64,000 bases of DNA from a virus. The notes below the pieces were generated by a model, which was given only the letters and a program-made list of their open reading frames with translations, did not search any database and was not told the DNA's origin. The first letter of the stretch is position 1. Each line of letters begins with the position of its first letter. The translations under genes were made by a program, and so were the position numbers. The stretch covers positions 15,815 to 79,814 of the IMG/VR virus record IMGVR_UViG_3300042549_005585. One strand, given 5' to 3'. Positions 7,107-45,346 of the stretch are shown here, piece after piece.

Positions 7107-8759
7107 CTAGATAGTGTTTAAGTCTAATACATAGATCTTACCATAGAATTCAGGACGAACCATCTTCTTAGCGTAACGAGTCATGATACCTTTACGTGGA
7201 GTGAAGGTATTTGGATCGTACACTAATGGAGTCATGATCAATGGAATGTATGGAGCGTAAACGGCACCTGATTCTAAGAATTGGTTACCACGGAAGCCCA
7301 TTAAGATAACGTTTTCAGTCATATAAGGATTCTTATAAACTTTGTAACGGCTATTTAATTGACCTACTTTTTGTACTCCAAACGCATACTTCATAGTATC
7401 TGCTGCACCATCTGTATCAGCTGCGAATCCTGGGATTGATTCTAAAACAGTAGCTACTGAAGGAGAAGTAACTAAGAAGTTAGCACCACCACGTAATGTT
7501 CTTTGGTGGATTGTGTTAGAGATCTTTTGCATTTTAGTTCCTAAAGTTTGGAACCAACCACCTTGTGTGTTGTAGTATCCACCAGCAGCAACTGAACTAT
7601 CAACATAAGTGATAGCACCGTTAGCAGCAACAGTTACGAATCTGTTAGACTGTGCAGACCATGCTTCAACAGTTGGAGCTGCTTCAACTAACATATCTAA
7701 GATTTCCAAATCAATCTCTAAAGAGATGTATTCAGATAAGATAGAAGTTAATTCAGCTTCAGCGTCTAATGAATGGTAAGCGTTCAAGTCTTGTGCAAAT
7801 TCTGGAGTCCATTGTGCTTTTAACTTACGAGTTTTAGCAGCAATAGTCTCAGAACGTAACTGAACGTTAATTTCTGGAATAGAAATTGTAGTTGCAGATT
7901 GAGCGTTTGGAACAGCGTATGTAGAACCATCTTCGAAATCACCACGAGCGTTAAAATCAGTTTGCTTATTATAGAAAACTGTTGTAGCTAATGGAGAAGT
8001 GAATGGATTCAAACCAGAAGAAGCAGTAACGAAGAATTCGATATTGCTGCCGTTGATCTTAGTGAACTGAGGTAAAACTTGCTCAGGAGCAATATTACTA
8101 GTAGCTGAGATAACAAATGCACCTACACCTAAAGTATCGTAGTTAGGGATGTTAGAAACAGCAACAACTACTTTCTTAATACCACCTGCTACTTGAGAAG
8201 CAGAGAAGTTAGCATCACCTTGGATATCAGCGAAAGAAGCTGAAGTTACAGCTGAAGCTGTAGCTAAAGATACTACTGAAGATGTTTGGTTCATTGTGTA
8301 ACCATAACGGCCAGCACCATATAAACCACCAGAAGCGAAGTTACCAAAGTTTGTAGATGTAGCACCATATAAAGAATTACCATCTTTGAAAGGATTCTTG
8401 TTAGTTCCATATTGGAAATCTAAGAAGAATACTAAACCAGCTGGTAAGCTCATTGGTTGTACAGAAACGAACTCTTTAGAAGCGATTTGACCAAATACTT
8501 TACGTACTAAAGGTAAGGCAACGCCAGCCCATTGTTCACCAGTCCCTGGAGTGAATGTACCACCTGTACCAGTTTGAGAAGACTCAACAACTAATTGCTT
8601 AGCTTGATTCTCCAACAACATAGCCATAGTAGTTCTGTCTTGTTCGCCAAGACCTTCCAAAAGACCTGATTTTGCCCATTTGCTAGCTAATTTGCTTGCA
8701 TCAGATTGAACTGACTGCCATGGGTTAGCAGATTCGATTAAAGATTGAACAGTACTCAT
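7107..8759 (-). CDS. Major capsid protein, T4 gp23-like
   Basis: VQPMSLPAGLVF, TRKLKAQWTPEFAQDL, YAPYIPL, GIMTRY motifs. Confidence 0.95.
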   Translation of the reverse strand: MSTVQSLIESANPWQSVQSDASKLASKWAKSGLLEGLGEQDRTTMAMLLENQAKQLVVESSQTGTGGTFTPGTGEQWAGVALPLVRKVFGQIASKEFVSVQPMSLPAGLVFFLDFQYGTNKNPFKDGNSLYGATSTNFGNFASGGLYGAGRYGYTMNQTSSVVSLATASAVTSASFADIQGDANFSASQVAGGIKKVVVAVSNIPNYDTLGVGAFVISATSNIAPEQVLPQFTKINGSNIEFFVTASSGLNPFTSPLATTVFYNKQTDFNARGDFEDGSTYAVPNAQSATTISIPEINVQLRSETIAAKTRKLKAQWTPEFAQDLNAYHSLDAEAELTSILSEYISLEIDLEILDMLVEAAPTVEAWSAQSNRFVTVAANGAITYVDSSVAAGGYYNTQGGWFQTLGTKMQKISNTIHQRTLRGGANFLVTSPSVATVLESIPGFAADTDGAADTMKYAFGVQKVGQLNSRYKVYKNPYMTENVILMGFRGNQFLESGAVYAPYIPLIMTPLVYDPNTFTPRKGIMTRYAKKMVRPEFYGKIYVLDLNTI

Positions 8760-8779: not shown

Positions 8780-9925
8780 TTATTTAATAATACCCGCTAA
8801 TTTTTGTAAGCGGTTAATAACAGCATCGCTTTCTACAATTGTTTGCTTAGGAGCATTTCCAACTGCTTTAGAAGCGAAACCAATAGATTCTTTCAATGAA
8901 GACTTCTTAGTCTCACTTACAGATTCTTTTAATGTTGCGTAAATGTTTTTAACCTCATTGATTGTAGTTGCACGATCAAATGCGTTAATAACTTTTACTT
9001 TTTGTGATTCAGCTAATGACTTAGCTTTGAAAATCTTATTAACGTAAAGTAATTTAGCGTTTAATAAGTTCACTTCGTTAATTGATTCTTTCAATGTTTT
9101 GATAACACTGATAGCTTCTTTTAACTCTTTTTCAGCTTTTTCTGCTTTCTTTTCTGCCTTAGCAGCTTTTTCTTCAGCAGCTTTTTCCTTAGCTTTTTCA
9201 GCTTTGGTTTTTTCTTTTTTAGCTTCGTAAAGGTCATCATTAGATTCTTCATCTAATTCAGATAACATTTCGTCGATGTCGGTAATTTCTGTGTCAGAAG
9301 TTTCCATGTCAGTTGGTTCCATATCAGGAGCTTCAGATCCACTTTGTCCCATTAACTCAGCTACAACATCATGAATGATGTCTCTTAACTCGTCAACAGT
9401 TAACTCAGTGATTTCTTCGTCACCTTCTTCTTCACCTTCTTCTTCTTCTTCTTCCTCTTTCAATTCGTCATCTTTAGCTTCTTCCATGGTATCATCTTCT
9501 TCTGCTGCTTCCATCATAGAATCATCATCAGATTTTGCTTCTTCCATGTCAGCGCCTTTGTCTTCTCCCTCTAAAGCTTCAAGTTCAGCTAAGATTTCGT
9601 CTAAAGATTCTTCCATATCGTAAGTTTCGTCCATTTGGTCGTCACCTTCTTTAAGTTTGTCGTCTTCATCCTTATCAGCTGTTTCTTGCATTTCTTCTTT
9701 GTTAGAAGCAGGCTTCTTAATGCGATACTCTTCGATTCCTTCTTCCATCTCATCTTTAACTTCGTCTAATTCTTCCTCAACTTCTTCAGAAAGTTTTAAC
9801 GAAATCATTTCTTTGATTCGTGGAGCAAAGGTTTCTTCAAGAGCGGCTTTTGCATTAGCTAACGCGGCTTCGCGTACAGCTTTAGCATCAGCGATCGCTT
9901 GTGCGAACAATGCTTGATTTGACAT
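8780..9925 (-). CDS. Prohead scaffold/core protein
   Basis: Acidic coiled-coil protein between protease and capsid genes; many L/I-x-E sites. Confidence 0.8.
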   Translation of the reverse strand: MSNQALFAQAIADAKAVREAALANAKAALEETFAPRIKEMISLKLSEEVEEELDEVKDEMEEGIEEYRIKKPASNKEEMQETADKDEDDKLKEGDDQMDETYDMEESLDEILAELEALEGEDKGADMEEAKSDDDSMMEAAEEDDTMEEAKDDELKEEEEEEEGEEEGDEEITELTVDELRDIIHDVVAELMGQSGSEAPDMEPTDMETSDTEITDIDEMLSELDEESNDDLYEAKKEKTKAEKAKEKAAEEKAAKAEKKAEKAEKELKEAISVIKTLKESINEVNLLNAKLLYVNKIFKAKSLAESQKVKVINAFDRATTINEVKNIYATLKESVSETKKSSLKESIGFASKAVGNAPKQTIVESDAVINRLQKLAGIIK

Positions 9926-10056: not shown

Positions 10057-10701
10057 CTAGATAGGCTTTATGCAACATATCCCAGTTTGAGAACAAATAA
10101 TCTCAGATATTAACTGGTTGATTTTACCATATTTGCTAGGTTTAGCAATTGTTGTTGGGTCATATGACTCGTTCATTGTTCCACCTGTTGGACGCATAAA
10201 TGCACCTTGTGTAGATGGTGTTGATACAAAATCCCAACATAACAATTCGAAATCGTCTTGTACCTCTACTGTACCTTCACCTAATGGTTTAACTGAACCC
10301 ATACCACGAGATGAAATACCTACAGTAATATTATTAACAAATAACTGCTTTAAGATATTACCACTTGGTGTCGGTAATACTTCGATTCTACCCATTAAAT
10401 CATCTCCGTCCCACCATAATTTAGTAATGTTATGGCATACGTTTTTAAGATTGATAATAGATGAATCTGGGTGATCTAGTTCGCCTAATGCTCTATTTTC
10501 AGCGATAGGTCCACTAACATACTTTTCTACTTCACGTTTTAAAGTATCTTTAGGATAAACACGTCCATTTTGATTTTTAGCATCAGCACGTTGTACCACA
10601 CCCTCAACAATTAAGTTTTTAGATGGATTAAACTTCGCCTCATTCAATGATTGAGGTGATGGCTGGAATGAGAAATATTCTATTAAAACTTGTTTGGACA
10701 T
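10057..10701 (-). CDS. Prohead maturation protease, T4 gp21-like
   Basis: NQNGRVYP, ALGELDHP, GISSRGMGS, WDFVSTPS motifs. Confidence 0.93.
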   Translation of the reverse strand: MSKQVLIEYFSFQPSPQSLNEAKFNPSKNLIVEGVVQRADAKNQNGRVYPKDTLKREVEKYVSGPIAENRALGELDHPDSSIINLKNVCHNITKLWWDGDDLMGRIEVLPTPSGNILKQLFVNNITVGISSRGMGSVKPLGEGTVEVQDDFELLCWDFVSTPSTQGAFMRPTGGTMNESYDPTTIAKPSKYGKINQLISEIICSQTGICCIKPI

Positions 10702-10711
10702 GATTAGTATA

Positions 10712-11851
10712 TTATACGTCTGTTGTTGTTGTTTGAACTCCTTTTTTAGCTAAACTAGCTTGTATGTCTGATACTTGATTATCTGGTACTACATCAATAG
10801 TTGTTCCTGTAGTTTTAGACTTAATAAGTTTAGTTTCTTTCTTTAACTTAGCTTTGATTTTAGCAATATTTTTAGTTTTCTTATCTACTTCTACTTCTTC
10901 GTTCTCAGTTAAAAAAAAATCTTTGAATGAAACACCTTCTTTAACCACTTTTGGTTTACCAGGCATATCCATTACTTTGCTAATTCCTTTAGCTTTCTTA
11001 GGTGTCATAGTCATTTCCTTAACACCTTTTGGAGATGCAGTTCCTTGCTCTTTCTTACCTAAATTATCTTTAACATTTGCTTTAGCATTCTTACCAGCAC
11101 CTTTTTTCAACATTCCATCAGCAGTTGCTTGCATTCCTGGTTTGTTAGTTTCAGTTTCTTTAAAAGTGTAAGGTGATTTTTTAGCATTTAACGTTGTGTA
11201 GTAGTTAGAATCTTTAGCTAAATTTCTTAATGTTTTAGCTTTAGCTTTTTCTAAACCCTCATCAGTATAGTCATCAGAACATTCTAATTCATATTGAATA
11301 CCTAAACGGTATTGGTATGGATTAGCATGATCCGCGTCAAGCGCTTTTGGTTGTTTTTTCTTACCTTCTTGTAATGAATCAGACTCAGCAAATTCTCTTC
11401 TACGAGACTTATATCTGTCTTTGAATCTTAAAACATCCATTACATCGTCAACGTCATTATAGAAACCATAATGTTTCAATAAAGCGTCTTCTTCTCTTTC
11501 ATATAAGTTATTTTCAGCGAAGAATTTACCTAACATTTTTTTATCAACACTTGTACCCAATTCGTCAACATATATTTCAATATCTTCATCACTTACTGGT
11601 TCCAATTTTTCATCTACAGAAGTATCTTCATAAGACATTTCTTCCATAGGTGCTTCTTCAGTAGTATCTACTTTAATTTCTTCTACAGACTCACGGATAA
11701 TACCCTTGTTCTTAAGGATTTTAATAGCATCATCATATGATGTTACACTAATAATCCAAGGTAACTTAGCGTCACGTCTAACCTCGTATAAAAATTTCTC
11801 GCGACTTACCTCGCCTGCTTTATGCTTTTTGTATAAATCTATTGTTGTCAT
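10712..11851 (-). CDS. Putative internal head/core protein
   Basis: In head module; multiple I/L-x-E sites; GIQYELE...NLAKDSNYYT segment resembles the C-terminal module of 38807..40111. Confidence 0.5.
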   Translation of the reverse strand: MTTIDLYKKHKAGEVSREKFLYEVRRDAKLPWIISVTSYDDAIKILKNKGIIRESVEEIKVDTTEEAPMEEMSYEDTSVDEKLEPVSDEDIEIYVDELGTSVDKKMLGKFFAENNLYEREEDALLKHYGFYNDVDDVMDVLRFKDRYKSRRREFAESDSLQEGKKKQPKALDADHANPYQYRLGIQYELECSDDYTDEGLEKAKAKTLRNLAKDSNYYTTLNAKKSPYTFKETETNKPGMQATADGMLKKGAGKNAKANVKDNLGKKEQGTASPKGVKEMTMTPKKAKGISKVMDMPGKPKVVKEGVSFKDFFLTENEEVEVDKKTKNIAKIKAKLKKETKLIKSKTTGTTIDVVPDNQVSDIQASLAKKGVQTTTTDV

Positions 11852-12221: not shown

Positions 12222-12737
12222 TTAATATTCAGGGTTTCTATCTTTTTCATCAAACGCACCTTGTATGTAAGCGTATCTACTTTCATTTCCTCCATCCCAT
12301 ACATTGTAGTTTTCATCATCATCCTTTCCAGTAAAGAAAATAATATCATATACTTCATCATAAAACTTAGTGTCAGTAGCCATTAGTTTTTCAAATTTTT
12401 CTAATGTATTAGGTCTAAGTTTAAATGCTATATAATTATCAGCTCCTGGTTTGTTTATTTTATATTCTTTCCATAATTGCTTATAGTCTATTGCTTTAGA
12501 CTTACGGTTAGGAACAGAAGGAGCATTTGTGAAACCAAAATGAGATACAGCGTAATTATTTTTTACTTTACCTCCAGCAAGTTGTGGAGCGTCTTCTTTC
12601 TTGATTTTTTTAAATGCTTTAGCAGTAGCGATTTGTGGATTGGAAACACCAGGAGCAAAACCAGCACCTGTACCAGTACCAGACATTTCTTTTACTAGTT
12701 GTGTAGTATACTCCTTAATATATTTTCTAATGTCCAT
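12222..12737 (-). CDS. Putative head protein carrying a C-terminal EYKINKP module
   Basis: LWKEYKINKPG at 12447-12467. Confidence 0.6.
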   Translation of the reverse strand: MDIRKYIKEYTTQLVKEMSGTGTGAGFAPGVSNPQIATAKAFKKIKKEDAPQLAGGKVKNNYAVSHFGFTNAPSVPNRKSKAIDYKQLWKEYKINKPGADNYIAFKLRPNTLEKFEKLMATDTKFYDEVYDIIFFTGKDDDENYNVWDGGNESRYAYIQGAFDEKDRNPEY

Positions 12738-13595: not shown

Positions 13596-13629
13596 ATAAA
13601 GTTAATGCGCACTACTTATAAATATGTTA

Positions 13630-15561: not shown

Positions 15562-15599
15562 TAATTATTTTGTTTGTATGAGTATAAATATTTACCGTA

Positions 15600-17192: not shown

Positions 17193-17223
17193 ATAACGGG
17201 GTTGTGTATATAAATATATAAGA

Positions 17224-18135: not shown

Positions 18136-18984
18136 TTATTTTATAATTCCAGCGTAATATTTCATTTTATTAATGATATACTCATCTAATTGTTCCTCAT
18201 CACTTGGTTCTTCTCCTGGTTCTTCAATTGGTGGAGGTGGAGGAGCTGATTGAGCATCTATTTTTTGCAGATATGATGATTTAGATACTAGATCAGCAAT
18301 ACGTTGTTCTAATGATACTTTCAAGTCACGTAAACGTTGTAATTCATCACTTGGTCTATCCTTAATATCTCCAGCTGTTGGTCTTGATTTTCTTAATGAT
18401 AAGATATTTCCTCTAGTCGCAGCTAAACGACGTTGTAATTCACTATACTTTAATGAGTCCTCAAAATCTTGATCTGATATTTTAGGAGCAAGGATTGGTT
18501 CTGCTTTTTCTATCTCATCATCTGATGGTTCCTCTTCTGGTTCTTCCTCGTCTGATTTTCTTTTGCTTAGTTTAGTTGTACCAACAAACAAATCATCTTC
18601 ATTATCAGGTAAATCTAACACATCATCTTCGCTTGGTTCTTCTTCTGGTTCTTCTTCTGGTTGAACTGAAGTTGAGCGTAATAGATTTTGTTTTAGGTCT
18701 GGGATTAGAGTGAATGACTTTCCAGGTACTGTTTCTTTCTCTATTTTACTCTTTAACAATTCAATCTCCATTGGTTCAACACCTTGATCAGCTGCTTGTG
18801 AAACAAAATAATTGATGATTTGTTGACGTCTATCATCCTTGTAATCAGATGGATTCTTAATTCTGTTTTCCAAGTCAGGAAACTCAGGATTAAGTTTATA
18901 TTTTTCCTTTGCTATTCTAGCCAATTCACTAACGCGAAATGACTGCTGCTCAGTTACGAATTTTTTATAATCAAAATCTGCCAT
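18136..18984 (-). CDS. Acidic putative internal head protein
   Basis: DFDYKKF leader, EEPEEEP repeats, scaffold-like C-terminus (YAGIIK). Confidence 0.55.
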   Translation of the reverse strand: MADFDYKKFVTEQQSFRVSELARIAKEKYKLNPEFPDLENRIKNPSDYKDDRRQQIINYFVSQAADQGVEPMEIELLKSKIEKETVPGKSFTLIPDLKQNLLRSTSVQPEEEPEEEPSEDDVLDLPDNEDDLFVGTTKLSKRKSDEEEPEEEPSDDEIEKAEPILAPKISDQDFEDSLKYSELQRRLAATRGNILSLRKSRPTAGDIKDRPSDELQRLRDLKVSLEQRIADLVSKSSYLQKIDAQSAPPPPPIEEPGEEPSDEEQLDEYIINKMKYYAGIIK

Positions 18985-19824: not shown

Positions 19825-20811
19825 CTATTTGTTGGAAATTTTACCTAATGTATCTTTAGCCCACTTCTCTTGACCAGCACTTAACTCACCATTAATAGCG
19901 TTTTGAATGAAGTCACGTAGTTGTGGATAAGGTAATTCAACTAATTTAGCAATGAATATATCACGAACATATGGATCACTAACATTGCTTTTGTTATAAA
20001 ACTTATTGATGGCATCTGAAATAGCATCTAACATGAATTTACCATAACGTAAATCGTCTGGTTCGTTTCTTAGTTTATCAACACTAGCAACTGATGCTTG
20101 GTTTAATGCTTTATTTTTACTCCATCCTCTTGATCCAATAACTGAGTATATTCCTTTAACTATTTCATGTATTAGAATAGGAAAGTTAATAGCGCGTGCT
20201 TTTACTATCCATTGTTTGTTTGCTTTATCATATACAGGTAAACTACTACCTCCAGGCATGTTATTATCATTAGCAATACCAGCTAATATTTGAGCGATAA
20301 AATTCTCATCATCATATCCACCTAAAGCAACGTCTAATATTTTACCATATTTGTCTACTAATGTTGGGTCAACACTATCCAAATAATCTTTCATTAATAA
20401 AAATGAACGAGAACCTCTAACACCAGCACCTTGAGTTAACGCGTTTATTAAACGACGTTTAGCATCCATATCTTCTTTCTCTTCAGGTGAATATCCTTGT
20501 TCGCCTGGTTTGTCTTGGAATTCACCTCTAGGAATAGCGGTGTTTTGAGACATTGGCTCTATCTTAGCATCAATCTTGATATTGTATTTGTCAACAATTG
20601 GGTAAGCATCTTTAACTACCTCAACTGCTAATTGCTCCAATTCATCTTGGTATCCACGTTCTGCTCTAGCAATTTCACTTGCTAAACGCATTGTTTCACC
20701 ACCATAATTTTTGGCGCCTTGTTTTTCTCTAGCTTGTTGAGATAGTCCCTTTAGCTTCCCCATTGTTTGGGGAGTGAACATTTTTTCGTATTCCTTCTCC
20801 TGTAATTTCAT
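19825..20811 (-). CDS. Hypothetical protein (head-associated candidate)
   Basis: KRRLINALTQG and FPILIHEIVKG segments; no firm family assignment. Confidence 0.5.
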   Translation of the reverse strand: MKLQEKEYEKMFTPQTMGKLKGLSQQAREKQGAKNYGGETMRLASEIARAERGYQDELEQLAVEVVKDAYPIVDKYNIKIDAKIEPMSQNTAIPRGEFQDKPGEQGYSPEEKEDMDAKRRLINALTQGAGVRGSRSFLLMKDYLDSVDPTLVDKYGKILDVALGGYDDENFIAQILAGIANDNNMPGGSSLPVYDKANKQWIVKARAINFPILIHEIVKGIYSVIGSRGWSKNKALNQASVASVDKLRNEPDDLRYGKFMLDAISDAINKFYNKSNVSDPYVRDIFIAKLVELPYPQLRDFIQNAINGELSAGQEKWAKDTLGKISNK

Positions 20812-21071
20812 TACTTACCCGCTTTTAAACGATTGAATATTTTTTGTATGCCTGCTTTCTCGTTTTCACGCATACGAGCTTTTGGATTCTCGTCAGGTAA
20901 AGCGTCAGGATCCATTGGTTCAAGTGGATTTTCCTCTGGCTCAACTTCTGGCTCTTCTTCTGGTTCAGCAATTTCAGGACTAGGATATGGTTTCCTAATT
21001 GGAGCCACAGATGGCAATGTATATTCTTTTATAATATCGCGTACAAGTTCGCGTAATTGTGCTTTGGTCAT
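20811..21071 (-). CDS. Small Pro/Glu-rich putative head protein
   Basis: LRELVRDIIKE amphipathic leader. Confidence 0.5.
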   Translation of the reverse strand: MTKAQLRELVRDIIKEYTLPSVAPIRKPYPSPEIAEPEEEPEVEPEENPLEPMDPDALPDENPKARMRENEKAGIQKIFNRLKAGK

Positions 21072-23213: not shown

Positions 23214-23615
23214 TTAGTCTTCTATAAGATAATATTTAATAGAAATAGGATTATAATGGTCTTCTTCAGTTTTATAGGCAATATCTTTTAAAAATGATCC
23301 TTTATTTTCTTCAACATATTGATCCCATTCATTTTCTAAATACTCATCTTCTTCTTCCTGTTCCCAAGTTTCAAAACCTTTACCCATTATTGTGATCACC
23401 ATAGAATTATCATTTTCATCATCATCACTAACATCAACAAGCCATTCAAATGGTTCATAAGAATCATTTTTAACATTATCTGAACAGTATTTATCATTGA
23501 TTATAGCACCATATTCTCCATCAGTTGTTTGGTCTGGTTCTACTATTTTTAGCTTATACTTTTTAGATGGGTTATTTATTTTATATTCATTAAGTATATC
23601 TATTAATTTGATCAT
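23214..23615 (-). CDS. Acidic candidate capsid-cargo protein (MIKL...E|YKINNP leader)
   Basis: MIKLIDILNEYKINNP; D/E-rich body. Confidence 0.7.
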   Translation of the reverse strand: MIKLIDILNEYKINNPSKKYKLKIVEPDQTTDGEYGAIINDKYCSDNVKNDSYEPFEWLVDVSDDDENDNSMVITIMGKGFETWEQEEEDEYLENEWDQYVEENKGSFLKDIAYKTEEDHYNPISIKYYLIED

Positions 23616-23616
23616 A

Positions 23617-24207
23617 TTATCGTTTTAATATTTTAAAGAAATCTTTAGTTGTGTCATTGTACTCCCACCAACCTTCACTTACATCTTCTTTCCATTGTCC
23701 TTTAATACATTCATAGTAATATTCATCATCTTCGTCTTTTTTTAATTCCCATATGTCACCAACAACAAATAAATGAGCAAAATTATCAAATATTTCATCT
23801 TTAGCATAATACTCATCTTCACGTGTTCGATCAGTACATAGGTATATATCTTTTACTACTTCTATTAATGCTGGTGGGCGTGAGCCTGGTTTGTTAATTT
23901 GGTATTCATCTAATTCTTCGTCTTCATCATCATCTTCTTCTTCTTCATCATAAACACTTTCATCACCTCCACTCTCAACATATTTCCAATTTTGTTTTAT
24001 ATAATAATATTCACTTGTGTCATCTACATAACTGGTAAAAAATTCAAAAAACTCATCTTTACTTATATTTTTTCCTTCAGGAAATGTTTTAAGAAAATCA
24101 GCCATTATATCTTCATCTTCATAACTTTTAACAATATCTAATACTAATTTATAATTACTATTAGGTCGATTAATTTTATACTCATTGAGTAAATCTATTA
24201 GTTTCAT
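23617..24207 (-). CDS. Two-module acidic candidate capsid-cargo protein
   Basis: MKLIDLLNEYKINRP plus internal LDEYQINKP (23887-23907). Confidence 0.7.
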   Translation of the reverse strand: MKLIDLLNEYKINRPNSNYKLVLDIVKSYEDEDIMADFLKTFPEGKNISKDEFFEFFTSYVDDTSEYYYIKQNWKYVESGGDESVYDEEEEDDDEDEELDEYQINKPGSRPPALIEVVKDIYLCTDRTREDEYYAKDEIFDNFAHLFVVGDIWELKKDEDDEYYYECIKGQWKEDVSEGWWEYNDTTKDFFKILKR

Positions 24208-24208
24208 A

Positions 24209-24568
24209 TTATTTATCTTTTACCATGTAATAAGTTGTTTGTCCTCTATCATCATCATAGTCATCCTCAATTGACACATCAAAATTTTTCAATGCTCTTA
24301 ATATTTCTCTATCTTCAATCCATTCCCAATAACCATATTTCATCATTACTCGATCTAATGATGGTGATAATCTAAGTGAATCATCAAGTCTATTTTCTAC
24401 TGGTTTTAGAGCGTTATAAACACGAATTAGTAATGATAATTCTTTATTATCTATTTTACGTAGTTTTGGATTGTAATCAACCCATAACTTACCTTTAGAT
24501 GAGTCAGTATTAAATAGTATTGGTTTGTTTATTTCATACTCGTTGAGTAAATCTATTAGTTTGATCAT
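24209..24568 (-). CDS. Candidate capsid-cargo protein
   Basis: MIKLIDLLNEYEINKP leader. Confidence 0.7.
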   Translation of the reverse strand: MIKLIDLLNEYEINKPILFNTDSSKGKLWVDYNPKLRKIDNKELSLLIRVYNALKPVENRLDDSLRLSPSLDRVMMKYGYWEWIEDREILRALKNFDVSIEDDYDDDRGQTTYYMVKDK

Positions 24569-24934: not shown

Positions 24935-25414
24935 CTAAAAATAGTTAAAAAGTAAAACAACTACTCCTCCGTCTCTAAATCCTTCCTCATCAGTTACAAT
25001 AACACCATCTAATTGATCATATTCGTTAGGTGATAAACGATCCCACTTAGTGATAACAGCATATCGTTCTTCACCTTGGTAACGTGTTCTTACTTCAGTA
25101 TCACCATCTCCTTTAACAACAAGCATAGGCATATCCATATTCATTGAACCATGAACATATCCTTCGTCTTTAAGGAACTTATCAGCCAAATGTATTGCTC
25201 TAAAGTCTTCTGTTGGTTTAAACTCAACAGCGTATTGTACTGGTTTGTTAATTATAGCTGCTGTATTTAGTTTGAGTTCAGGATGAGCAGATTTAATTTC
25301 AGCGGGTGTTTTACCCACTAAATCCTTTCTAACTATTGGTTCATCAGGATTACCTAGTTGATTTACAACATCATCACCGAATGCTTCTTTAAGTATGTCT
25401 ATTAGTTTTTTCAT
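24935..25414 (-). CDS. Candidate capsid-cargo protein (leader without YKINKP)
   Basis: MKKLIDILKE leader. Confidence 0.65.
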   Translation of the reverse strand: MKKLIDILKEAFGDDVVNQLGNPDEPIVRKDLVGKTPAEIKSAHPELKLNTAAIINKPVQYAVEFKPTEDFRAIHLADKFLKDEGYVHGSMNMDMPMLVVKGDGDTEVRTRYQGEERYAVITKWDRLSPNEYDQLDGVIVTDEEGFRDGGVVVLLFNYF

Positions 25415-25773
25415 TAGTATAAAATTAGTAAAAGTATATTATCGTCTTCTTTAATAATTAGTTTAGAATATTTTCTTATGTCCATATCAACATTACCTAT
25501 ATCACTAGCTTCATCTTGTCCATCATATAAATAAGCTGCGAATTTATGATGAAAATTTTTGATAACTTGTTCCATTTTATTGAATTGTTCTTCATTTATA
25601 CCTTGATCATCTATAAACTTTTCTTTATCATCATATCCCCAAGTTTTTAACATATCTTCTATGCTGTTAGCTTTTGACATAGATGGATACCAATAAAATA
25701 ATTCAGGGTCGTATTTGAATACAGCGGGACTATTTATTTTGTATTCGTCTAATATTTCTGCTAGTTTAATCAT
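25414..25773 (-). CDS. Candidate capsid-cargo protein
   Basis: MIKLAEILDEYKINSP leader. Confidence 0.7.
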   Translation of the reverse strand: MIKLAEILDEYKINSPAVFKYDPELFYWYPSMSKANSIEDMLKTWGYDDKEKFIDDQGINEEQFNKMEQVIKNFHHKFAAYLYDGQDEASDIGNVDMDIRKYSKLIIKEDDNILLLILY

Positions 25774-28211
25774 AGTTTAATTGTTTTAATATCAACAAAG
25801 TCTCTTTCAGTTTCATCATATACTCTTACATTAGCGTATAAACCATCAATTTCAGGATCTAAATTTATCCTTTCAATTTCAGTGTAACGAGGTATATTGT
25901 CATCTCCTAAATTTTGTTCTATTACAGCCCAATATTCATAAGATTTTCTATATAAGTATTGTCCTTTTAGTGTATCTAAAGCTAATTTCTCAGCATTAGT
26001 GAATGTTGTTTCAACTTTTTCCTGTTGGAATTGGTTTGGTCCTTCATACCAAGATATTCTATAGTTTCCTGAGTTTGGTTTGTTAATTTTATACTCATTT
26101 AAACCATCTTTAAATGGAAATTCATCTGGGTGTGATGTTAAGAAAAAGCTCATTTCTGATGTGGCAAAATCTTCAATATCTTCATCTGTAGCGTTTTCAA
26201 AATCAAAGTCACTTAATCCATTTAATGTAGATTCTTCCCAACCTTCTTCATCACTCATAAAAGTTTCTACATCATCAATATATTCAGGATCAATTACTGA
26301 TTCAAGGTAACTATGTATTAGACCTTTATCTATAACATAGTATCTGTTTCCATCTTCATCTTTTTCTAAACTAATATACTTGTTACGTTTTGGTTTATTA
26401 ATTTTATACTCTTTAATTTTGTTTGAATCTCTAATAACATCTGTTTTAAGTAAGAAATCAATTAAACCATCAAGTTCTCCTATCCATATGTTTTTTCCTA
26501 CTTCACTTTTTAACCAAGTATCAATTTCATTAGTGTTTACTGTTTCTACTTGACTTATATCAACTATATCATTTAACATTAAGCAAGCATCAGCTACATC
26601 CTCACCATATAATCTGTTAACATTATGATAATCATTCATACCATACTCATACTTAACCCAATCAGCTACTTTATATGTTTTAGATGGTTTGTTGATTTTG
26701 TATTCATTAATAAAGTCAGACTTAAGTAAAGTATTGTTTACTTGTTGAACAAAATCATTCTCATTAAATATCTCAGATGGTTCTATATAGTAGTCCACTA
26801 CTTTTTCTATAAGAAGTGGAATATATACATCATAATAATCTTTTGTATTGCGTGTATGAGGAAGGTCTGGGTGTTCTTTAGTTTTGATATAGTTGAATAC
26901 TTTGTTTCGTATTTCATTTATATCAATAGCTTCAAAATATGCTTTCCAAATAACTTTGTTTATATAACGTTTTAAGTCAACATTATCATTAAGATAGTCT
27001 AATACATCCTCACCACTAATTGTACTTACATTCAATGGGCTAGCAATAATTTCCTTACCATCTTTTTCAAACTCATAATGGTTAACAACCATATGTTCTT
27101 TGATAAAATCAATTATGATGTCGTGAGTATCATACTTCTCATCCTTAACAAATTCAACAGCAGGAGTATCATAATATTCTTCATGGTCTTTAACTAGACT
27201 AACTATATGTCTGTTAATAGCATCCTTCACATCGTTCATAAAGTCAGATGGAAGTGAATCAGTAGGTTTATTAATCTTATATTCGTTAAGTGGCTGATTT
27301 TTTTTAATTAACACCATACCAAGTAAGTACTCAAGTATTTCATCTATTGTGTTATCTTTCAAATTACTATGAGGAGCATTTTTCCAACGTTCAATATCAG
27401 CTTTAGTTACTGTGTTACGGTCAAAAATATTCATATTGAAATACAATATAGTTAACGCGTTTAATTCGTCTGAGTATGGACCTAAACGATATTCTGCTTT
27501 GTCCCAATCAAGTTCATATGGATCTTCAGTAAAATAATTATACACCCAATCTGCTATTTTATATCCAGGATCAGGAGTGTTAATTTTATATTCTTCAACA
27601 TTTTCATTAAGGGCATTGGTGTTTGTCATTAATATAGTGTCATCAATAACAATTGCTTTTACATCACGTTCACGTAAGTGTTTAACAATTCTATTTAATA
27701 CACTTTCCTTAAATGTATTTGACATTAATGAATTATCAGGATAATATCCTAAAGCATCATCATGTTGTAAACGGTATTGAGGTGAGTTATCAATTCTTAA
27801 CTCAACAAACTTAGTGTTAGGCATTACTTTATAACTAACATTATCATACCCATCAATGCTGATAGTTTTCTTTTCGTTGTTAGTATTAGTAATTATATTC
27901 TCATTAATGTTGTTGTATGGTTGTAATTCTTCTTCTGTCCACCATGTTGGACTAGCATCTTTATTATGCTCTAACCATTGAATCAAATACCAAGGTTCAT
28001 TTATTGTATTATCATCTTCATATGGATGTTGAAATATATATTCCCGATTAGTGGGATTTGATATTACCGCTTCCCAATTAGGTCTTCTATCTAATATTTT
28101 ACATGATTCTTCATCACCATATAATTCACGTACAATTTCACCTACCTTATACTTGTAAGTAGTAGGTTTGTTTACTTTGTACTCGTTTAATATTTCTGTT
28201 AGTTTAATCAT
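25770..28211 (-). CDS. 813-aa candidate cargo polyprotein with six EYK(I/V)NxP junctions
   Basis: Motif Glu codons start at 28184, 27593, 27284, 26705, 26411 and 26096. Confidence 0.75.
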   Translation of the reverse strand: MIKLTEILNEYKVNKPTTYKYKVGEIVRELYGDEESCKILDRRPNWEAVISNPTNREYIFQHPYEDDNTINEPWYLIQWLEHNKDASPTWWTEEELQPYNNINENIITNTNNEKKTISIDGYDNVSYKVMPNTKFVELRIDNSPQYRLQHDDALGYYPDNSLMSNTFKESVLNRIVKHLRERDVKAIVIDDTILMTNTNALNENVEEYKINTPDPGYKIADWVYNYFTEDPYELDWDKAEYRLGPYSDELNALTILYFNMNIFDRNTVTKADIERWKNAPHSNLKDNTIDEILEYLLGMVLIKKNQPLNEYKINKPTDSLPSDFMNDVKDAINRHIVSLVKDHEEYYDTPAVEFVKDEKYDTHDIIIDFIKEHMVVNHYEFEKDGKEIIASPLNVSTISGEDVLDYLNDNVDLKRYINKVIWKAYFEAIDINEIRNKVFNYIKTKEHPDLPHTRNTKDYYDVYIPLLIEKVVDYYIEPSEIFNENDFVQQVNNTLLKSDFINEYKINKPSKTYKVADWVKYEYGMNDYHNVNRLYGEDVADACLMLNDIVDISQVETVNTNEIDTWLKSEVGKNIWIGELDGLIDFLLKTDVIRDSNKIKEYKINKPKRNKYISLEKDEDGNRYYVIDKGLIHSYLESVIDPEYIDDVETFMSDEEGWEESTLNGLSDFDFENATDEDIEDFATSEMSFFLTSHPDEFPFKDGLNEYKINKPNSGNYRISWYEGPNQFQQEKVETTFTNAEKLALDTLKGQYLYRKSYEYWAVIEQNLGDDNIPRYTEIERINLDPEIDGLYANVRVYDETERDFVDIKTIKL

Positions 28212-30261
28212 TCTTGATATTAGCTAATTGTTTTAACCTATCCGCTTCTTCTTTTAACACACTAGAGGCAGGTGAGCCATTAAGTGTTACTTCTTTAGCG
28301 CTATAAACACGTTTAGGTGATTCATTGTCTGAGAAATATCCTCCACTTATACTTTCATCATTAATGAATGATTCATCACCATCAATATTTGATTCTACTA
28401 CTTTACCATTACTATCTAATAATACCCAATTTGTGTAACGTCCTTCAGTTTCTTCTACTGGTAGTAGAGTATAATAGTTTCCTCCTGATTGGATAAAGAA
28501 TGGTAATGCGTAAAGCATTGTTAAGTATTTTTGATCCCCATTCACCTTATTAGCTAGATCAAGTAATGTTTTTCTTTCTTGTGGTGATAATGTAAGCCAC
28601 TGTTTAGCTAAAATAGGAGCAGGATCTACATCTTGGTTTGGTGAATCAAAAAATGTAGCCATTTTCTCTTCATCAGGATTAAGATTTTCTCCAAATTTCC
28701 AGTTAACAAATAACTTACTATATATTGAAAATAAATTTTTTAATTTATCATTATCAATGTACTTGATAGCAGATGGAGGTAAGTAATCTAATTCTTTAAG
28801 ATGTTTCTTAACAAACTCCTTAGATGATTTTTCTCCAAAATATTTTTCTACTAACTCAAGAGATAAAACATTATCATAAGCATCCATATACTTTTCCTTA
28901 GCAGGCTCATCTAGATACTGAATGAAAGGTAATGGTATAGGTGTTTTACTATAGTCTGTATGTCTAAAACGATATATAGCATAACGACTAGCTAATGATG
29001 GATAATCTTTTAAGTCAGCGTAAGTGAATTTTTGACCACTATCAATAGCAATATTAGCTAAAGTAGTAGTTCTACCTTCAAGTGAAATCTTATATTTAGG
29101 TAATATGCTTAGTATGTCTTGTTTCAAAGCGTTTTTCATTGCTTTAGCTTGAACATACATTATTTTCTCATCTTGAGTTAATTCCTTAAATTCATCAACA
29201 GATAAATTTTTACCTTGAGCAAACTTTCTAGCACGTTCACTACCTGATAACGCTACTGGTTTGAATAATTCTTTTAAGTTTTTAATTTTAGCCCAAGTGT
29301 CAGCAGGAACAATTTTAGATATATCATCCCAACTAGCGGCTTTATTATCTCCAGCATTATCAGCATTAGTGACTACATATGATTTACCATCAGCATTAGC
29401 TTGCAAAGCGATTGCATGGTACGGATCATCAAAATAAGAATGTTCAGGAGCTGATGTTTTACTACGATCAAAAATAAAATAAAATGTAGGTGCTTCTTCT
29501 TTGAATCGATAATAATCGTAGTTAGTATTTCCGGGTTGTGCGACACACCAACCATATTTTTTTCTGTTAGTTGATGCTACTGTAGGATTGTATTGAATAC
29601 ACTTATGTACTTCATCACACTTATAAACCTCAATATCTCCTTTACTATATATCTTATCAGCGTCAGTTTCAGCTAAGTTTTCACCTTCCTCTCCAACTTT
29701 AATTTGTGTTGGAAATAAAGCATCTAGCATTTGCTCTAAACTTTGCCATCTGTAATTACGAGGATCTAAATATAAATCATTAGCTAACAAACGAGCAGGT
29801 ATAAATTTCTTAACTTCCTCCTTAGTGAATCTTTCATCTTCAGTACCATTCTCAACAGCATACTTTAAATCTTTCTTCTTATTCATGAAGCGAGCCACGT
29901 ATGATTGAGCTGTAGTTTTGTCTATTTGCTCTTTATCAACAAATTTCTTAATGGCTTCTTTCTTAATTTTCTCCTCGTTTTGAGGTAAAGACTTAAGTAA
30001 GTTTACCATATCATTGTAAGAATACTTATCAATGTTAAGATAATTATTATTTTGTTTTAAATCATCTGGTAGTACAATTATGTCTAGTTTCTGTGCTAAT
30101 GATGATTTCTTTTGATCAAATTGTTGAATTAATTGACGAGCAGCATTAACAGCGGCTTTATCATTAGAATCAATACCCCATCTAGCAATAGTATCATTTA
30201 TTGTCTTTTCTGTGTATTCTCTTAGCAAAACTTCTTGTAATATATTGGATAATCGCGTCAT
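28204..30261 (-). CDS. 685-aa putative internal head protein
   Basis: MTRLSNILQE leader; GWCV...YFIFD segment; scaffold-like C-terminus RLKQLANIK. Confidence 0.55.
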   Translation of the reverse strand: MTRLSNILQEVLLREYTEKTINDTIARWGIDSNDKAAVNAARQLIQQFDQKKSSLAQKLDIIVLPDDLKQNNNYLNIDKYSYNDMVNLLKSLPQNEEKIKKEAIKKFVDKEQIDKTTAQSYVARFMNKKKDLKYAVENGTEDERFTKEEVKKFIPARLLANDLYLDPRNYRWQSLEQMLDALFPTQIKVGEEGENLAETDADKIYSKGDIEVYKCDEVHKCIQYNPTVASTNRKKYGWCVAQPGNTNYDYYRFKEEAPTFYFIFDRSKTSAPEHSYFDDPYHAIALQANADGKSYVVTNADNAGDNKAASWDDISKIVPADTWAKIKNLKELFKPVALSGSERARKFAQGKNLSVDEFKELTQDEKIMYVQAKAMKNALKQDILSILPKYKISLEGRTTTLANIAIDSGQKFTYADLKDYPSLASRYAIYRFRHTDYSKTPIPLPFIQYLDEPAKEKYMDAYDNVLSLELVEKYFGEKSSKEFVKKHLKELDYLPPSAIKYIDNDKLKNLFSIYSKLFVNWKFGENLNPDEEKMATFFDSPNQDVDPAPILAKQWLTLSPQERKTLLDLANKVNGDQKYLTMLYALPFFIQSGGNYYTLLPVEETEGRYTNWVLLDSNGKVVESNIDGDESFINDESISGGYFSDNESPKRVYSAKEVTLNGSPASSVLKEEADRLKQLANIKND

Positions 30262-30275: not shown

Positions 30276-30284
30276 TATAAATAT
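30276..30284 (-). promoter_or_regulatory. Late-promoter motif ATATTTATA heading the cargo operon
   Basis: One of ~21 intergenic copies; 14 nt upstream of ATG 30261. Confidence 0.65.
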
Positions 30285-31587: not shown

Positions 31588-32535
31588 TTAATCTATGTCA
31601 AGATCGATTGAGTCATCGTTCTTGTCTACTATAATGAAATCCTTGACTCCACTATCACTAGTCATGTAGATTCGAATATCATTTCCGTACGCTTCAATTT
31701 TAGTGACAGTAACTTTATCTCCTTTAGAAAAATTACCCATTCCACTTGCTACAGTAAATGTATCTCCATCTTTGATATGAGCGGCAGATACCGCTTCGTT
31801 TGTTTTTTGTTTCATAACCTTGTTTATAATTCTTTGTTTAATTTCTTTAATAACACTACGTCTTCTCTTTTGCTCAGCCAACGGAGCCTCTTCCTCACCT
31901 GGTAATGCTAAACTACCTGGTTCACCTTCACCTTCACCAGGCGCTGGTGTTTCAGGAGCTGCTTCAGGTGCTGTTTCACCTCCTATAGGTGTTTCAGGAG
32001 CAGGAGCTTCAGCTGATGTTTCTGTTCCTACTGCTTCAATAGGTTTAGGAGAGCCTATAGATAATAGAGTAGCAATTTTCTCAACCGCGTTCTCAAACTC
32101 ACCTAAATTAAGTAAGTAATAACGTCTACCTCCTGCTTTTATCTCATATGTTTTACCCATAAACTTCATATAGAAGGATTGGTTATTATGAAGTACAACT
32201 TTAAAAGTAGTTGGTTTAGGCGCTATAATATAGATACCTGTAACGTAATTTCTAAAGTCAGGAGTCATTAAATCCTCAATAGTACGATTAAGTGAAGGGT
32301 ATGTCTGTAAAATATATTCCAATGGATTAGACTCAAAAGTGATAGGTTCATCTTTTGGTTCTTCAATAGGTGTCTCTTCAGGAGTATCTACAGGTGTTTC
32401 TTCAGGTGTGTCTACAGGTGTTTCTTCAGGAGTTTCCTCATCAACCTCCATAAGATCTACATCATGTCCTTTGATACGCTCTTGAACTTTTTGTATTATT
32501 GCATTACGCAATATGTCTTTTTTAGTTTGTTCCAT
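31588..32535 (-). CDS. Pro/Glu-rich putative head-associated protein
   Basis: ETP repeats flank a globular core. Confidence 0.5.
   Translation of the reverse strand: MEQTKKDILRNAIIQKVQERIKGHDVDLMEVDEETPEETPVDTPEETPVDTPEETPIEEPKDEPITFESNPLEYILQTYPSLNRTIEDLMTPDFRNYVTGIYIIAPKPTTFKVVLHNNQSFYMKFMGKTYEIKAGGRRYYLLNLGEFENAVEKIATLLSIGSPKPIEAVGTETSAEAPAPETPIGGETAPEAAPETPAPGEGEGEPGSLALPGEEEAPLAEQKRRRSVIKEIKQRIINKVMKQKTNEAVSAAHIKDGDTFTVASGMGNFSKGDKVTVTKIEAYGNDIRIYMTSDSGVKDFIIVDKNDDSIDLDID
32368..32437 (-). repeat. 24-nt coding tandem repeat (TPEETPVD, ~3 copies)
   Basis: ETPEETPVDTPEETPVDTPEETP. Confidence 0.8.
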
Positions 32536-32897
32536 TAGTATGTTTCTTCATTGTTTTTTTCAGTCATATACTCAGTTACACTGTGTATGTAGTCTGAAGC
32601 TAATGTAATGTAAGCTGATATCCAACCTGGAAGTTCAGTTCCTGGTTGTATCATTCTGTATGCTTTAGCTCCATTCATAAGCATATCTCTTAATTCACCT
32701 TTAGCCATTGTAGCTTCATGGTCAGATGATGGTTGACCTAAAACATCTCCACCTTCGTTAGTTGTAGCTTTGCTAATTGCTTTACGACGCTTAAGAAGAT
32801 ATTTGTCTGTTTTATCTACTTTTCCATCATTGTTGATGTCAGAATCTTCTTGTCCTACAGGATCCATTGATTCTAATATTTTGGATAGTTTAATCAT
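32535..32897 (-). CDS. Candidate cargo protein with EF-hand/dockerin-like loop
   Basis: MIKLSKILE leader; [14 protein letters not shown]. Confidence 0.6.
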
Positions 32898-35529: not shown

Positions 35530-35763
35530 TTACTTATTAGTTGGATGCCACCAATTGCAGCAATATTCATCAGCGGGATATGGAACTTCAGCTTTATCAT
35601 CATTCCATTGTAGCCAATATTTGTTATTACATTTGTTACCTTTTGCTACCCAATATTCACAGTTAGCACACATAGAACCACCTTTAGTCACCCTCATACC
35701 AGGCTGATGGTCAGCTGGGTATTCAATTGGTCCTTCTAGTAGTAGAGCGTCTATTAGTTTCAT
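35530..35763 (-). CDS. Small HiPIP-like Cys-rich protein with MKLIDALLLE leader
   Basis: CANCEYW...C...YCCNWW. Confidence 0.5.
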   Translation of the reverse strand: MKLIDALLLEGPIEYPADHQPGMRVTKGGSMCANCEYWVAKGNKCNNKYWLQWNDDKAEVPYPADEYCCNWWHPTNK

Positions 35764-45302: not shown

Positions 45303-45346
45303 AAATCTTGTTGATTGCTATTATAAATATATATTAGTTACGGATT

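What the first reader, a model, noticed from the sequence alone, without database searches (positions are those of the whole stretch)
25770..28211. Polyprotein of concatenated cassettes joined by E|YKINKP protease-like junctions
Seen: this one ORF contains the motif six times (LNEYKVNKP, VEEYKINTP, LNEYKINKP, INEYKINKP, IKEYKINKP, LNEYKINKP). The motifs delimit segments of 197, 103, 193, 98, 105 and 108 aa, i.e. about 100-aa units or doubles. The first segment has an extra INE site midway. The same junction begins the neighbouring stand-alone genes, and 23617..24207 is a two-unit version. Inference: a single targeting leader imports the whole chain and the prohead protease releases 6-7 separate proteins, most with the same YKINKP N-terminus. 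Polyprotein processing of this kind is unusual for dsDNA phage cargo.
Basis: partly seen in the sequence, partly recalled or inferred. Interest (0 to 1): 0.9.

Follow-up and report, generated by a model that had tools for sequence, protein, structure and literature searches.

The report
Protease-punctuated phage head-cargo polyprotein
A T4-like phage (nearest cultured relative infects Flavobacterium) encodes an 813-residue chain of small, unrelated acidic modules, each preceded by the cutting motif of the phage's own head protease plus a fixed six-residue tag; one address label therefore probably loads many interchangeable small proteins into the capsid, but no cutting or packaging has been measured.

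Summary
ORF 25770-28211 (-) carries [LIV]-x-E|YK[IV]N-x-P six times, at the stated spacing. The same motif ends the 10-residue leader of five neighbouring genes. The phage has a T4-type head module with an S77 (gp21-like) protease, which in T4 cuts after L/I-x-E. The leader has its hydrophobic residues and Glu at positions 4, 7, 8 and 10, the positions that matter in the T4 capsid-targeting sequence.

Comparative data show that the junctions bound independent cassettes:
- Modules are gained, lost, reordered and swapped exactly at junctions.
- The same module is a stand-alone gene in one phage and an internal module in another.
- Modules are also appended to head-operon proteins.
- AlphaFold puts every junction in a low-confidence linker.

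Across about 80 distant relatives the P1 Glu is constant. The tag after it is lineage-specific and mostly uniform within a protein or genome (YKINKP, IKVNNP, ARVTPV and others).

Cleavage and packaging are inferred, not shown. The tag is not explained by protease specificity, because the capsid protein's predicted site lacks it.

This is a new variant of the T4 internal-protein/CTS system. The scan has noted similar protease-punctuated cargo polyproteins in other T4-like phage genomes. I found no paper that describes this junction tag.

The parts
30277..30284 (-). Promoter-like ATATTTAT motif upstream of the p685-polyprotein-array unit, preceded by a terminator-like hairpin
   Evidence: All 23 copies in the window are on the coding strand. 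They lie upstream of the TerL, portal, p379, scaffold and tail genes among others. None lies inside 30261->23215. The function is inferred.
28204..30261 (-). 685-aa leader-bearing protein (MTRLSNILQE...), first gene of the unit; in relatives it is a carrier of junction-linked modules
   Evidence: The L001 homolog is 817 aa, with an extra 133-aa module after IHE|YNINKP. The G003 homolog (49% identity) is 792 aa with two junctions. No Pfam or PHROG hit.
28182..28211 (-). 10-residue leader MIKLTEILNE of the polyprotein (candidate capsid-targeting sequence ending in L-N-E)
   Evidence: L4, I7, L8 and E10 fall on the positions that matter in the T4 IPIII CTS (PMC9026906).
27900..28181 (-). Module 1a (res 11-104), ends at the tag-less junction NNINE|NIITN
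   Evidence: Homologs carry one or two copies. It sits near the C-terminus in P0016 and is appended to p328 homologs in P0020/P0021.
27591..27899 (-). Module 1b (res 105-207), ends VEE|YKINTP
27282..27590 (-). Module 2 (res 208-310), ends LNE|YKINKP; paralog of module 4
   Evidence: pLDDT about 70
26703..27281 (-). Module 3 (res 311-503, 193 aa), ends INE|YKINKP
   Evidence: Distant homologs occur in proteins of up to 1967 aa.
26409..26702 (-). Module 4 (res 504-601), ends IKE|YKINKP; absent or replaced in some homologs
   Evidence: Absent in P0011/13/14. Replaced by a 133-aa or 140-aa module in P0012/P0010. pLDDT about 80.
26094..26408 (-). Module 5 (res 602-706), very acidic (net charge -20), ends LNE|YKINKP
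   Evidence: Widespread domain. It is found inside p379 homologs (P0039, P0047, P0052, P0055) and in the p171 homolog P0063, and behind other leader classes.
25773..26093 (-). Module 6 (res 707-813), constant C-terminal module
   Evidence: pLDDT about 84 in the full-length model.
25414..25773 (-). Stand-alone leader + tag + 109-aa module
24935..25414 (-). Stand-alone gene with leader MKKLIDILKE but no YKINKP tag
   Evidence: conserved in L001 and L005
24572..24931 (-). Stand-alone leader + tag + module
   Evidence: homolog at L001 7198-7557
24209..24568 (-). Stand-alone leader + tag + module that is an internal or terminal module in relatives
   Evidence: Fused as the last module of L001 8424-9233 and L005 1913-2986
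23617..24207 (-). Two-module protein with an internal junction LDE|YQINKP (Glu at residue 101)
   Evidence: Its second module is stand-alone in L001 (9235-9567 and 9569-9907). It is the terminal module of a polyprotein in P0035.
23214..23615 (-). Stand-alone leader + tag + 123-aa module, last gene of the unit
12222..12737 (-). Head-operon protein (between portal and protease) with junction LWKE|YKINKP (Glu at residue 91) and an appended 80-aa module
   Evidence: The homolog P0063 carries other modules after the same QLWE site. The syntenic immuto gene is only 73 aa, with weak similarity.
10712..11851 (-). 379-aa head-operon protein next to the protease; carries junction-linked modules in relatives
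   Evidence: P0039/47/52/55 contain module 5. The G003 homolog has two KLKE|IKVNxP junctions.
10057..10701 (-). Prohead protease, Peptidase_S77 (T4 gp21 family), the proposed cutting enzyme
   Evidence: PF03420 at 8e-30; phrog_207 at 3e-55
8780..9925 (-). Scaffold-like acidic protein with many h-x-E sites and a degenerate tag IEE|YRIKKP at residue 66
   Evidence: position between protease and capsid gene as in T4
7107..8759 (-). Major capsid protein (Gp23 family); predicted maturation site LLE50|N or VVE59|S, without the tag
19825..20811 (-). 328-aa protein that carries junction-linked modules in relatives
   Evidence: L001 homolog is 446 aa; P0020/P0021; G003 homolog is 622 aa with three junctions

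Best explanation
The 813-aa protein is a head-cargo polyprotein. It is a polycistron-like version of the T4 internal-protein system.

Proposed steps:
1. The 10-residue leader MIKLTEILNE works like the T4 capsid-targeting sequence and brings the whole chain into the scaffolding core of the prohead (inferred).
2. The S77 prohead protease (10057-10701) cuts after Glu of each [LIV]-x-E junction. This removes the leader and releases six or seven small acidic proteins of about 95-195 aa, most starting with YK[IV]N-x-P (inferred from the motif match).
3. The pieces stay in the head and enter the host with the DNA. There they plausibly act against host functions, as T4 IPI* does (speculative).

What is shown:
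- The junctions bound independent, exchangeable cassettes.
- The junction grammar (P1 Glu plus a lineage-specific tag) is shared by leaders and internal junctions across many genes and phages.
- The same grammar attaches modules to proteins encoded in the head operon.

The six-residue tag after the cut has a further, unknown, cargo-specific role. Protein-level selection keeps it uniform within a genome, yet the capsid protein's cleavage site lacks it.
For: 1. The phage has a T4-type head module: Gp23 capsid protein, Gp20 portal and an S77 protease. T4 gp21 cuts after L/I-X-E. The T4 CTS is the first 10 residues, with positions 4 and 7 serving targeting and 8 and 10 serving processing (PMC9026906). 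Here L4, I/L7, L8 and E10 are the near-invariant leader positions in about 12 genes.
2. Cassette behaviour. In about 20 close homologs, modules are inserted, deleted, duplicated or reordered exactly at junctions. Three modules occur stand-alone in one phage and fused in another.
3. Link to the head. Junction-linked modules sit on p171 and on p379 homologs, which are encoded between portal and protease. Module 5 is embedded in p379 and p171 homologs.
4. P1 Glu is constant while the tag changes by lineage. Tags seen include YKINKP, IKINKP, ARVTPV (12 sites in one protein), IVVKP, IEVGIP, HIISIP, LQINKP and AFINAP. A complete 175-kb relative has 25 E|IKVNNP-type sites in 14 proteins.
5. All three near-complete IMG/VR records with tag-bearing junctions encode an S77 protease.
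6. In the AlphaFold model, every junction lies in a stretch with pLDDT below 50 between better-folded domains, and pTM is 0.28.
7. Mixed synonymous codons indicate protein-level selection.
8. The unit is preceded by the same promoter-like motif as the head and tail genes.
Against: - There is no proteomic, biochemical or expression evidence for packaging or cleavage.
- The predicted capsid-protein site (LLE|NQAKQL) lacks the tag. It is identical in a relative that uses a different tag. The tag's conservation is therefore not explained by the protease alone.
- All modules are acidic (pI 4.1-5.2). From my own knowledge, T4 IPII/IPIII are basic.
- One carrier, p328, has no recognisable leader.
- The promoter-like motif also precedes genes that are not obviously structural.
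- The structural model has low overall confidence (mean pLDDT 57.6).
- In one lineage, P3 is often Thr rather than L/I/V.
Confidence: 0.6

Rival explanations
1. The protein is an uncut modular protein. The junction is a conserved linker that serves as a cassette boundary for recombination, or as a short docking strand that binds a partner without being cleaved. The protein acts as beads on a string, inside or outside the virion.
For: - Cassette exchange at the junctions is the only thing directly shown.
- The tag is not needed at the capsid protein's predicted cleavage site.
Against: - Synonymous sites in the motif are scrambled, so DNA homology is poor and selection acts on the peptide.
- P1 Glu with a mostly hydrophobic P3 is exactly the S77 rule, and it stays constant while the rest of the motif changes.
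- The same site ends the 10-residue N-terminal leaders, which a linker role does not explain.
Confidence: 0.2
2. The protein is cut at the junctions but is not delivered cargo. Either the pieces are accessory core or scaffold material that is degraded or expelled during head maturation, or the chain is processed in the cytoplasm by another Glu-specific protease and its products act late in infection.
For: - T4 core proteins gp22, gp67 and gp68 are cut into several fragments that mostly leave the head (PMC9026906).
- The modules are acidic like the scaffold.
- Junction-bearing proteins lie in the core-gene positions.
Against: - The modules are predicted to be folded domains of 95-195 aa, which I infer are too large to leave through capsid pores.
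- Turnover is rapid. A relative with 62% capsid identity has homologs of none of the cargo modules. This fits host-facing accessory proteins better than assembly parts.
- No second protease was seen. Only part of the window was searched against family libraries, and the contig is incomplete.
Confidence: 0.12
3. The motif is a DNA- or translation-level signal: an embedded promoter, a recombination site, an internal start, or a 2A-like ribosome-skipping peptide.
For: - The coding sequence of the motif is AT-rich and contains TATAAA-like strings.
- The motif recurs at gene starts.
Against: - Codons differ freely between copies.
- There is no Met at the junctions.
- Lineage variants such as ARVTPV, IEVGIP and HIISIP share neither DNA nor an NPGP-type skip motif.
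- The phage's own promoter-like motif is a different sequence, ATATTTAT, and it is intergenic.
Confidence: 0.03

Closest known systems
T4 internal proteins IPI, IPII, IPIII and Alt with their capsid-targeting sequence, processed by gp21
   Same: - T4-type head genes and an S77 protease.
- A leader of about 10 residues that ends hydrophobic-x-Glu, with key residues at positions 4, 7, 8 and 10.
- The leader is shared by unrelated small proteins in a hypervariable locus (PMC9026906, PMC3012670, PMC2839356).
   Different: - Here many modules are concatenated in one ORF, each behind its own cut site.
- A conserved six-residue tag follows the cut.
- The modules are acidic.
- Several leader classes share one tag.
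- There is no sequence similarity to T4 IPs.
T4 core proteins gp22, gp67, gp68; inner-body and ejection proteins of phiKZ and SPN3US
   Same: One head protein is cut at several x-x-Glu sites by the gp21-family protease. Paralog families of head-internal proteins vary in number between phages.
   Different: As reported, those proteins are single functional units or lose long propeptides. They are not strings of unrelated, exchangeable cassettes with a repeated junction tag.
Polyvalent proteins of phages and conjugative elements (Iyer, Burroughs, Anand, de Souza, Aravind 2017, PMC5512222)
   Same: Many disparate domains sit in one polypeptide that is predicted to be packaged and delivered with the DNA. 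The authors draw an analogy to RNA-virus polyproteins.
   Different: Polyvalent proteins are defined by known enzymatic or effector domains and often by embedded peptidase domains that release them. Here no known domain or embedded peptidase was detected, and release would be by a protease acting in trans at a repeated motif.
Polymorphic toxin cassettes demarcated by short motifs (CdiA VENN, Rhs PxxxxDPxGL); comparison from my own knowledge
   Same: A short conserved peptide marks the border where variable C-terminal modules are swapped onto conserved carriers.
   Different: The delivery route is different. No toxin or immunity pairs are evident, and many modules are joined in series.

Membership tests
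T4-type CTS / internal-protein system | Phage has a T4-type prohead with a gp21-family (Peptidase_S77) protease | tested here: met
   PF03420 at 8e-30, with Gp23 and Gp20 families in T4 gene order
T4-type CTS / internal-protein system | N-terminal propeptide of about 10 residues ending L/I-x-E, with targeting residues at positions 4 and 7 and processing residues at 8 and 10 | tested here: met
   Pattern M-x-K-L-x-x-[IL]-L-x-E in about 12 genes. The T4 rule is taken from PMC9026906. This is a sequence-pattern match only.
T4-type CTS / internal-protein system | Unrelated mature parts share the leader in a hypervariable locus | tested here: met
   29 module families. Content differs between the window, L001, L005 and G003.
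T4-type CTS / internal-protein system | Leader removed by the prohead protease; mature protein present in the virion and ejected | not testable with these tools
   Needs virion proteomics or biochemistry
T4-type CTS / internal-protein system | Sequence homology to T4 IPI/II/III or Alt | tested here: not met
   No Pfam or PHROG family. No tblastn hit in 50,697 phage records. T4-family IPs are themselves unrelated to one another, so this test is weak.
Polyvalent proteins (Iyer et al. 2017) | 2-15 distinct domains in one phage polypeptide | tested here: met
   Six to seven modules separated by low-confidence linkers
Polyvalent proteins (Iyer et al. 2017) | Domains drawn from the characteristic effector/enzyme set, often with an embedded peptidase | tested here: not met
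   No Pfam hit at E<=0.01 for the polyprotein or for the stand-alone modules tested
Viral polyprotein (strict sense) | A protease recognition site at every domain border | tested here: met
   [LIV]-x-E at all six borders and INE at the seventh
Viral polyprotein (strict sense) | Demonstrated cleavage into mature products | not testable with these tools
   The complex prediction gave no verdict (see Tried and rejected)

The most novel reading that the evidence does not exclude
T4-like phages of this aquatic, Flavobacterium-phage-related group use a two-part 'junction code': a head-protease Glu site followed by a lineage-specific tag that a co-evolving partner reads. The partner could be a protease exosite, a core adaptor or the ejection machinery. 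Any module placed behind the code, alone or in series, would then be loaded, cut free and delivered. That would make a natural plug-and-play system for a fast-evolving library of injected anti-host proteins.
Probability: 0.35. Interest if true: 0.85.

Novelty: new variant of a known kind. Interest (0 to 1): 0.7.

Why it matters
T4's internal proteins show that phages inject proteins that defeat host defences, but each known one is a separate gene with its own address label.

If this reading is right, a whole group of uncultured T4-like phages packs many exchangeable small proteins behind a single label. They would do so by stringing the proteins together with protease sites. That would explain how the ejected-protein repertoire turns over so quickly.

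It would also flag hundreds of orphan modules as candidate injected effectors. And it would offer a natural multi-cargo design for phage-capsid protein delivery.

The lineage-specific tag is a defined, testable handle on what, besides the protease, recognises head cargo.

Tried and rejected
The contigs of homologs P0002-P0111 could not be fetched. No test of tag-versus-protease covariation beyond G003 was possible.
- **Complex prediction**, protease plus junction peptide (res 294-330): no verdict, score 0.00. This is evidence neither way.
- **Foldseek** of the full model against PDB and BFVD: nothing at E<=0.001.
- **VIA wide search:** best Z 6.6. Module 6 matched AcrIF9 at Z 6.6 (rmsd 3.1, 70 aligned) and T4 Dmd at Z 6.3. 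Module 3 matched Ocr at Z 5.0. All are under the tool's noise line of about Z 8 and were not used.
- **Module 6 folded alone** gave pLDDT 40.6 and was unusable.
- **ESM Atlas:** no usable hit.
- **Pfam and PHROGs:** no family for any cargo module.
- **tblastn against cultured phages:** no hit for the polyprotein. Only weak metagenomic hits for p685 and p328.
- **Metagenome scan:** a single locus.
- **'Shorter' homolog search:** mostly contig-end fragments, not true stand-alone genes.
- **Literature search** for the motif strings: none found.
- **Rejected readings:** DNA-level repeat or promoter (codons vary); 2A-like ribosome skipping (variants lack NPGP); a single solenoid fold.
Full report
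**Setting.** The window is the right-hand 64 kb of a 79.8-kb phage contig. Nearly all genes are on the minus strand.
- It carries a T4-type head module in T4 order. The genes are large terminase (15600-17192), Gp20 portal (13630-15561), three small or medium genes, a Peptidase_S77/gp21-family prohead protease (10057-10701), an acidic scaffold-like protein (8780-9925) and a Gp23 capsid protein (7107-8759).
- The nearest cultured relative by capsid protein is Flavobacterium phage immuto, at 57% identity.

**Observation.**
- ORF 25770-28211 (-) is open for 813 aa. It carries E-Y-K-[IV]-N-x-P six times, with Glu at residues 10, 207, 310, 503, 601 and 706. The segments are 197, 103, 193, 98, 105 and 107 aa.
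- The window holds 13 copies, all in ORFs on the coding strand. Five end the 10-residue N-terminal leader of neighbouring small genes. One is internal in the two-module gene 23617-24207. One is internal in the head-operon gene 12222-12737.
- A degenerate DNA pattern matches 10 times against 0 expected.
- Codon choice differs freely between copies (GAG/GAA 6:7, TAT/TAC 9:4, AAT/AAC 6:7). The peptide is conserved, not the DNA.
- A broader leader, M-x-K-L-x-x-[IL]-L-x-E without the tag, starts at least six further genes. These include the 685-aa gene just upstream.

**Match to the T4 rule.**
- T4 gp21 cuts after Glu of L/I-X-E. The T4 capsid-targeting sequence is the first 10 residues of IPIII. 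Positions 4 and 7 serve targeting and positions 8 and 10 serve processing (PMC9026906; also PMC7411985 and PMC3012670).
- The leaders here keep L4, I/L7, L8 and E10. P3 at the six tagged junctions of this ORF is L, V, L, I, I, L.
- The capsid protein's mature N-terminus, placed by alignment to mature T4 gp23*, falls near residue 52. That is next to LLE50|N or VVE59|S, so the phage's own capsid protein appears to follow the same rule.

**The junctions bound independent cassettes.** This is the strongest result. About 20 close homologs of 511-951 aa exist in metagenomes.
- They differ by whole modules that are inserted, deleted, duplicated or replaced exactly at junctions. Module 4 is absent in P0011/13/14 and is replaced by a 133-aa or 140-aa module in P0012/P0010. 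An extra N-terminal module is present in P0003/5/10. P0016 carries the usually N-terminal module near its C-terminus.
- In the syntenic IMG/VR locus L001 and the metagenome locus L005, the window's stand-alone gene 24209-24568 is the last module of a two- or three-module protein.
- The second module of window gene 23617-24207 is two stand-alone genes in L001 and the terminal module of a polyprotein in P0035.
- A further module family occurs in three places: in a small two-module protein, appended to the homolog of window gene 19825-20811, and inside a polyprotein.
- The homologs of the 685-aa and 328-aa window proteins carry extra C-terminal modules behind IHE|YNINKP and LKE|YKVNKP.

**Structure.** AlphaFold2 with 14 homologs gives a low global score (mean pLDDT 57.6, pTM 0.28). 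Every junction, and the tag-less INE site, lies in a stretch with pLDDT below 50 between better-predicted domains (about 70-84). This argues against a single repeat fold with the motif as a structural element. It fits beads on a string with exposed linkers.

**A wider junction grammar.** An exhaustive HMMER search found 82 relatives.
- In nearly all multi-module proteins among them, the most-repeated 6-mer, found without reference to Glu, is the junction.
- Glu at P1 is constant. The six residues after it are mostly uniform within a protein and differ between lineages. Variants include IKINKP, ARVTPV (12 sites in a 1320-aa protein), IVVKP, LKVNNP, IQINKP, IEVGIP, HIISIP, LQINKP, AFINAP and IKVNxP (9 sites in a 1967-aa protein).
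- In L005, leaders and junctions of three different genes mostly use IKINKP-type tags, with I, or once T, after the Glu instead of Y. One junction of its polyprotein keeps YKINKP.
- In IMG/VR, the IKINKP tag follows three different leader classes, each ending hydrophobic-x-E.
- All three near-complete tag-bearing records encode an S77 protease.
- One of these, G003, is a complete 175-kb syntenic relative (capsid 62%, protease 61% identity). It has 25 E|IKVNNP-type sites in 14 proteins. They include the homologs of p379 (next to the protease), p328 and p685, and a 959-aa polyprotein.
- None of the window's cargo modules has a homolog in G003. Carriers and grammar are conserved while the cargo turns over.

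**Link to the head.**
- In the window, the 171-aa gene between portal and protease carries LWKE|YKINKP and an appended 80-aa module. Its homolog P0063 carries other modules after the same site.
- Module 5 of the polyprotein is embedded in four homologs of p379, the gene adjacent to the protease.
- The whole unit from the 685-aa gene to 23214 has no intergenic gaps. It is preceded by a hairpin and an ATATTTAT motif. All 23 copies of this motif lie on the coding strand, among others before the TerL, portal, p379, scaffold and tail genes. This is weak support, because the motif also precedes other genes.

**Interpretation.** The best reading, at confidence 0.6, has three parts.
- One capsid-targeting-type leader brings the chain into the prohead core.
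- The S77 protease cuts at each junction.
- Six or seven small acidic proteins remain as head cargo.

Only the modularity, the grammar and the head-operon associations are shown. Targeting, cleavage, retention and function are inferred.

The tag needs its own explanation. It is under protein-level selection and is homogeneous within genomes, yet the predicted capsid-protein site LLE|NQAKQL lacks it. That site is also identical in G003, which uses a different tag. The tag is therefore cargo-specific. It may be an enhanced or exosite-read cleavage context, a contact with a core component, or a function of the new N-terminus. I cannot tell which.

**Rivals.**
- An uncut modular protein with a recombination or docking linker (confidence 0.2).
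- A protein that is cut but is not delivered cargo (0.12).
- A DNA- or translation-level signal (0.03; disfavoured).

**Function of the modules.** All modules are orphans. All are acidic, with pI 4.1-5.2. Fold searches gave only sub-threshold resemblances. An anti-defence role by analogy with T4 IPI* is speculation.

**Novelty.**
- The CTS/internal-protein system, multiple gp21 cuts in core proteins, and polyvalent packaged proteins are all known.
- I found no description of cargo polyproteins built from exchangeable cassettes with a repeated cut-site-plus-tag junction. I also found none of these motif strings in the searchable literature.
- Other agents of this scan have reported similar protease-punctuated cargo polyproteins in other T4-like phages. 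These are unchecked AI notes, not independent evidence.
- This case adds four things: the extended lineage-specific tag, the stand-alone/fused toggling, the fusion of modules to head-operon genes, and a genome-wide census in a complete relative.

**Limits.** The complex prediction gave no verdict. The contig is incomplete.

Noticed in passing
window, 23 sites, e.g. 413-420, 10022-10029, 13618-13625, 15584-15591, 17210-17217, 30277-30284, 45323-45330: ATATTTAT occurs 23 times, always on the coding (minus) strand. In the sites examined it lies in short gaps just upstream of genes, often after a hairpin. It is probably this phage's main promoter element. The total count is not above chance, but the 23:0 strand bias and the placement are striking.
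   Followed up: partly
window 11998-12210, 17283-17450, 18136-18984; L002 (immuto) 18763, 32588, 33589: A second N-terminal leader class, M(A)DNFDYKKF.../MENxFDLKKFLVENKL, is shared with cultured Flavobacterium phage immuto. In IMG/VR one such leader runs directly into LLQE|IKINKP.
   Followed up: partly
window 20811-21071, 35763-35954, 54473-54937; L002 17251, 17837, 28145, 38312: A third leader-like class (M..xQLRELVRDIIKE / MKKSQLRxIIKE) occurs in the window and in immuto. A fourth class (MNEIKRLQQLAGIITE|) dominates in relatives such as G003 and many hits.
   Followed up: no
window 42355-42738: A leader-bearing 127-aa protein (MIKLINILKE...) has a ParB_N domain (Pfam 6e-08). If the leader marks head cargo, this is a candidate packaged DNA-binding protein or nuclease.
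   Followed up: no
window 32535-32897: A leader-bearing 120-aa protein carries a dockerin/EF-hand-like [12 protein letters not shown] calcium-binding motif. The same motif recurs inside the 842-aa immuto protein at L002 28963-31488.
   Followed up: no
window 8780-9925 (about 9710-9730): The scaffold-like protein carries a degenerate copy of the junction, IEE|YRIKKP, at residue 66. The G003 scaffold has no such copy.
   Followed up: partly
G003 (L099-L107), 127741-130620: In the complete 175-kb relative, a 959-aa protein starts with an HxGH nucleotidyltransferase-like region. It continues through four E|IKVNxP junctions, so an enzyme is joined to modules by the same grammar.
   Followed up: no
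G003 142679-144547 versus window 19825-20811: The p328 homolog in G003 is split by about 155 inserted residues and carries three junction tags. Modules can therefore be inserted inside a carrier, not only appended to it.
   Followed up: no
window 25773-26093 (module 6): In the full-length model, module 6 is a small alpha/beta domain. Its best structural neighbours are anti-CRISPR AcrIF9 (Z 6.6) and T4 antitoxin Dmd (Z 6.3). Both are below the tool's noise line, so this is a lead only.
   Followed up: partly
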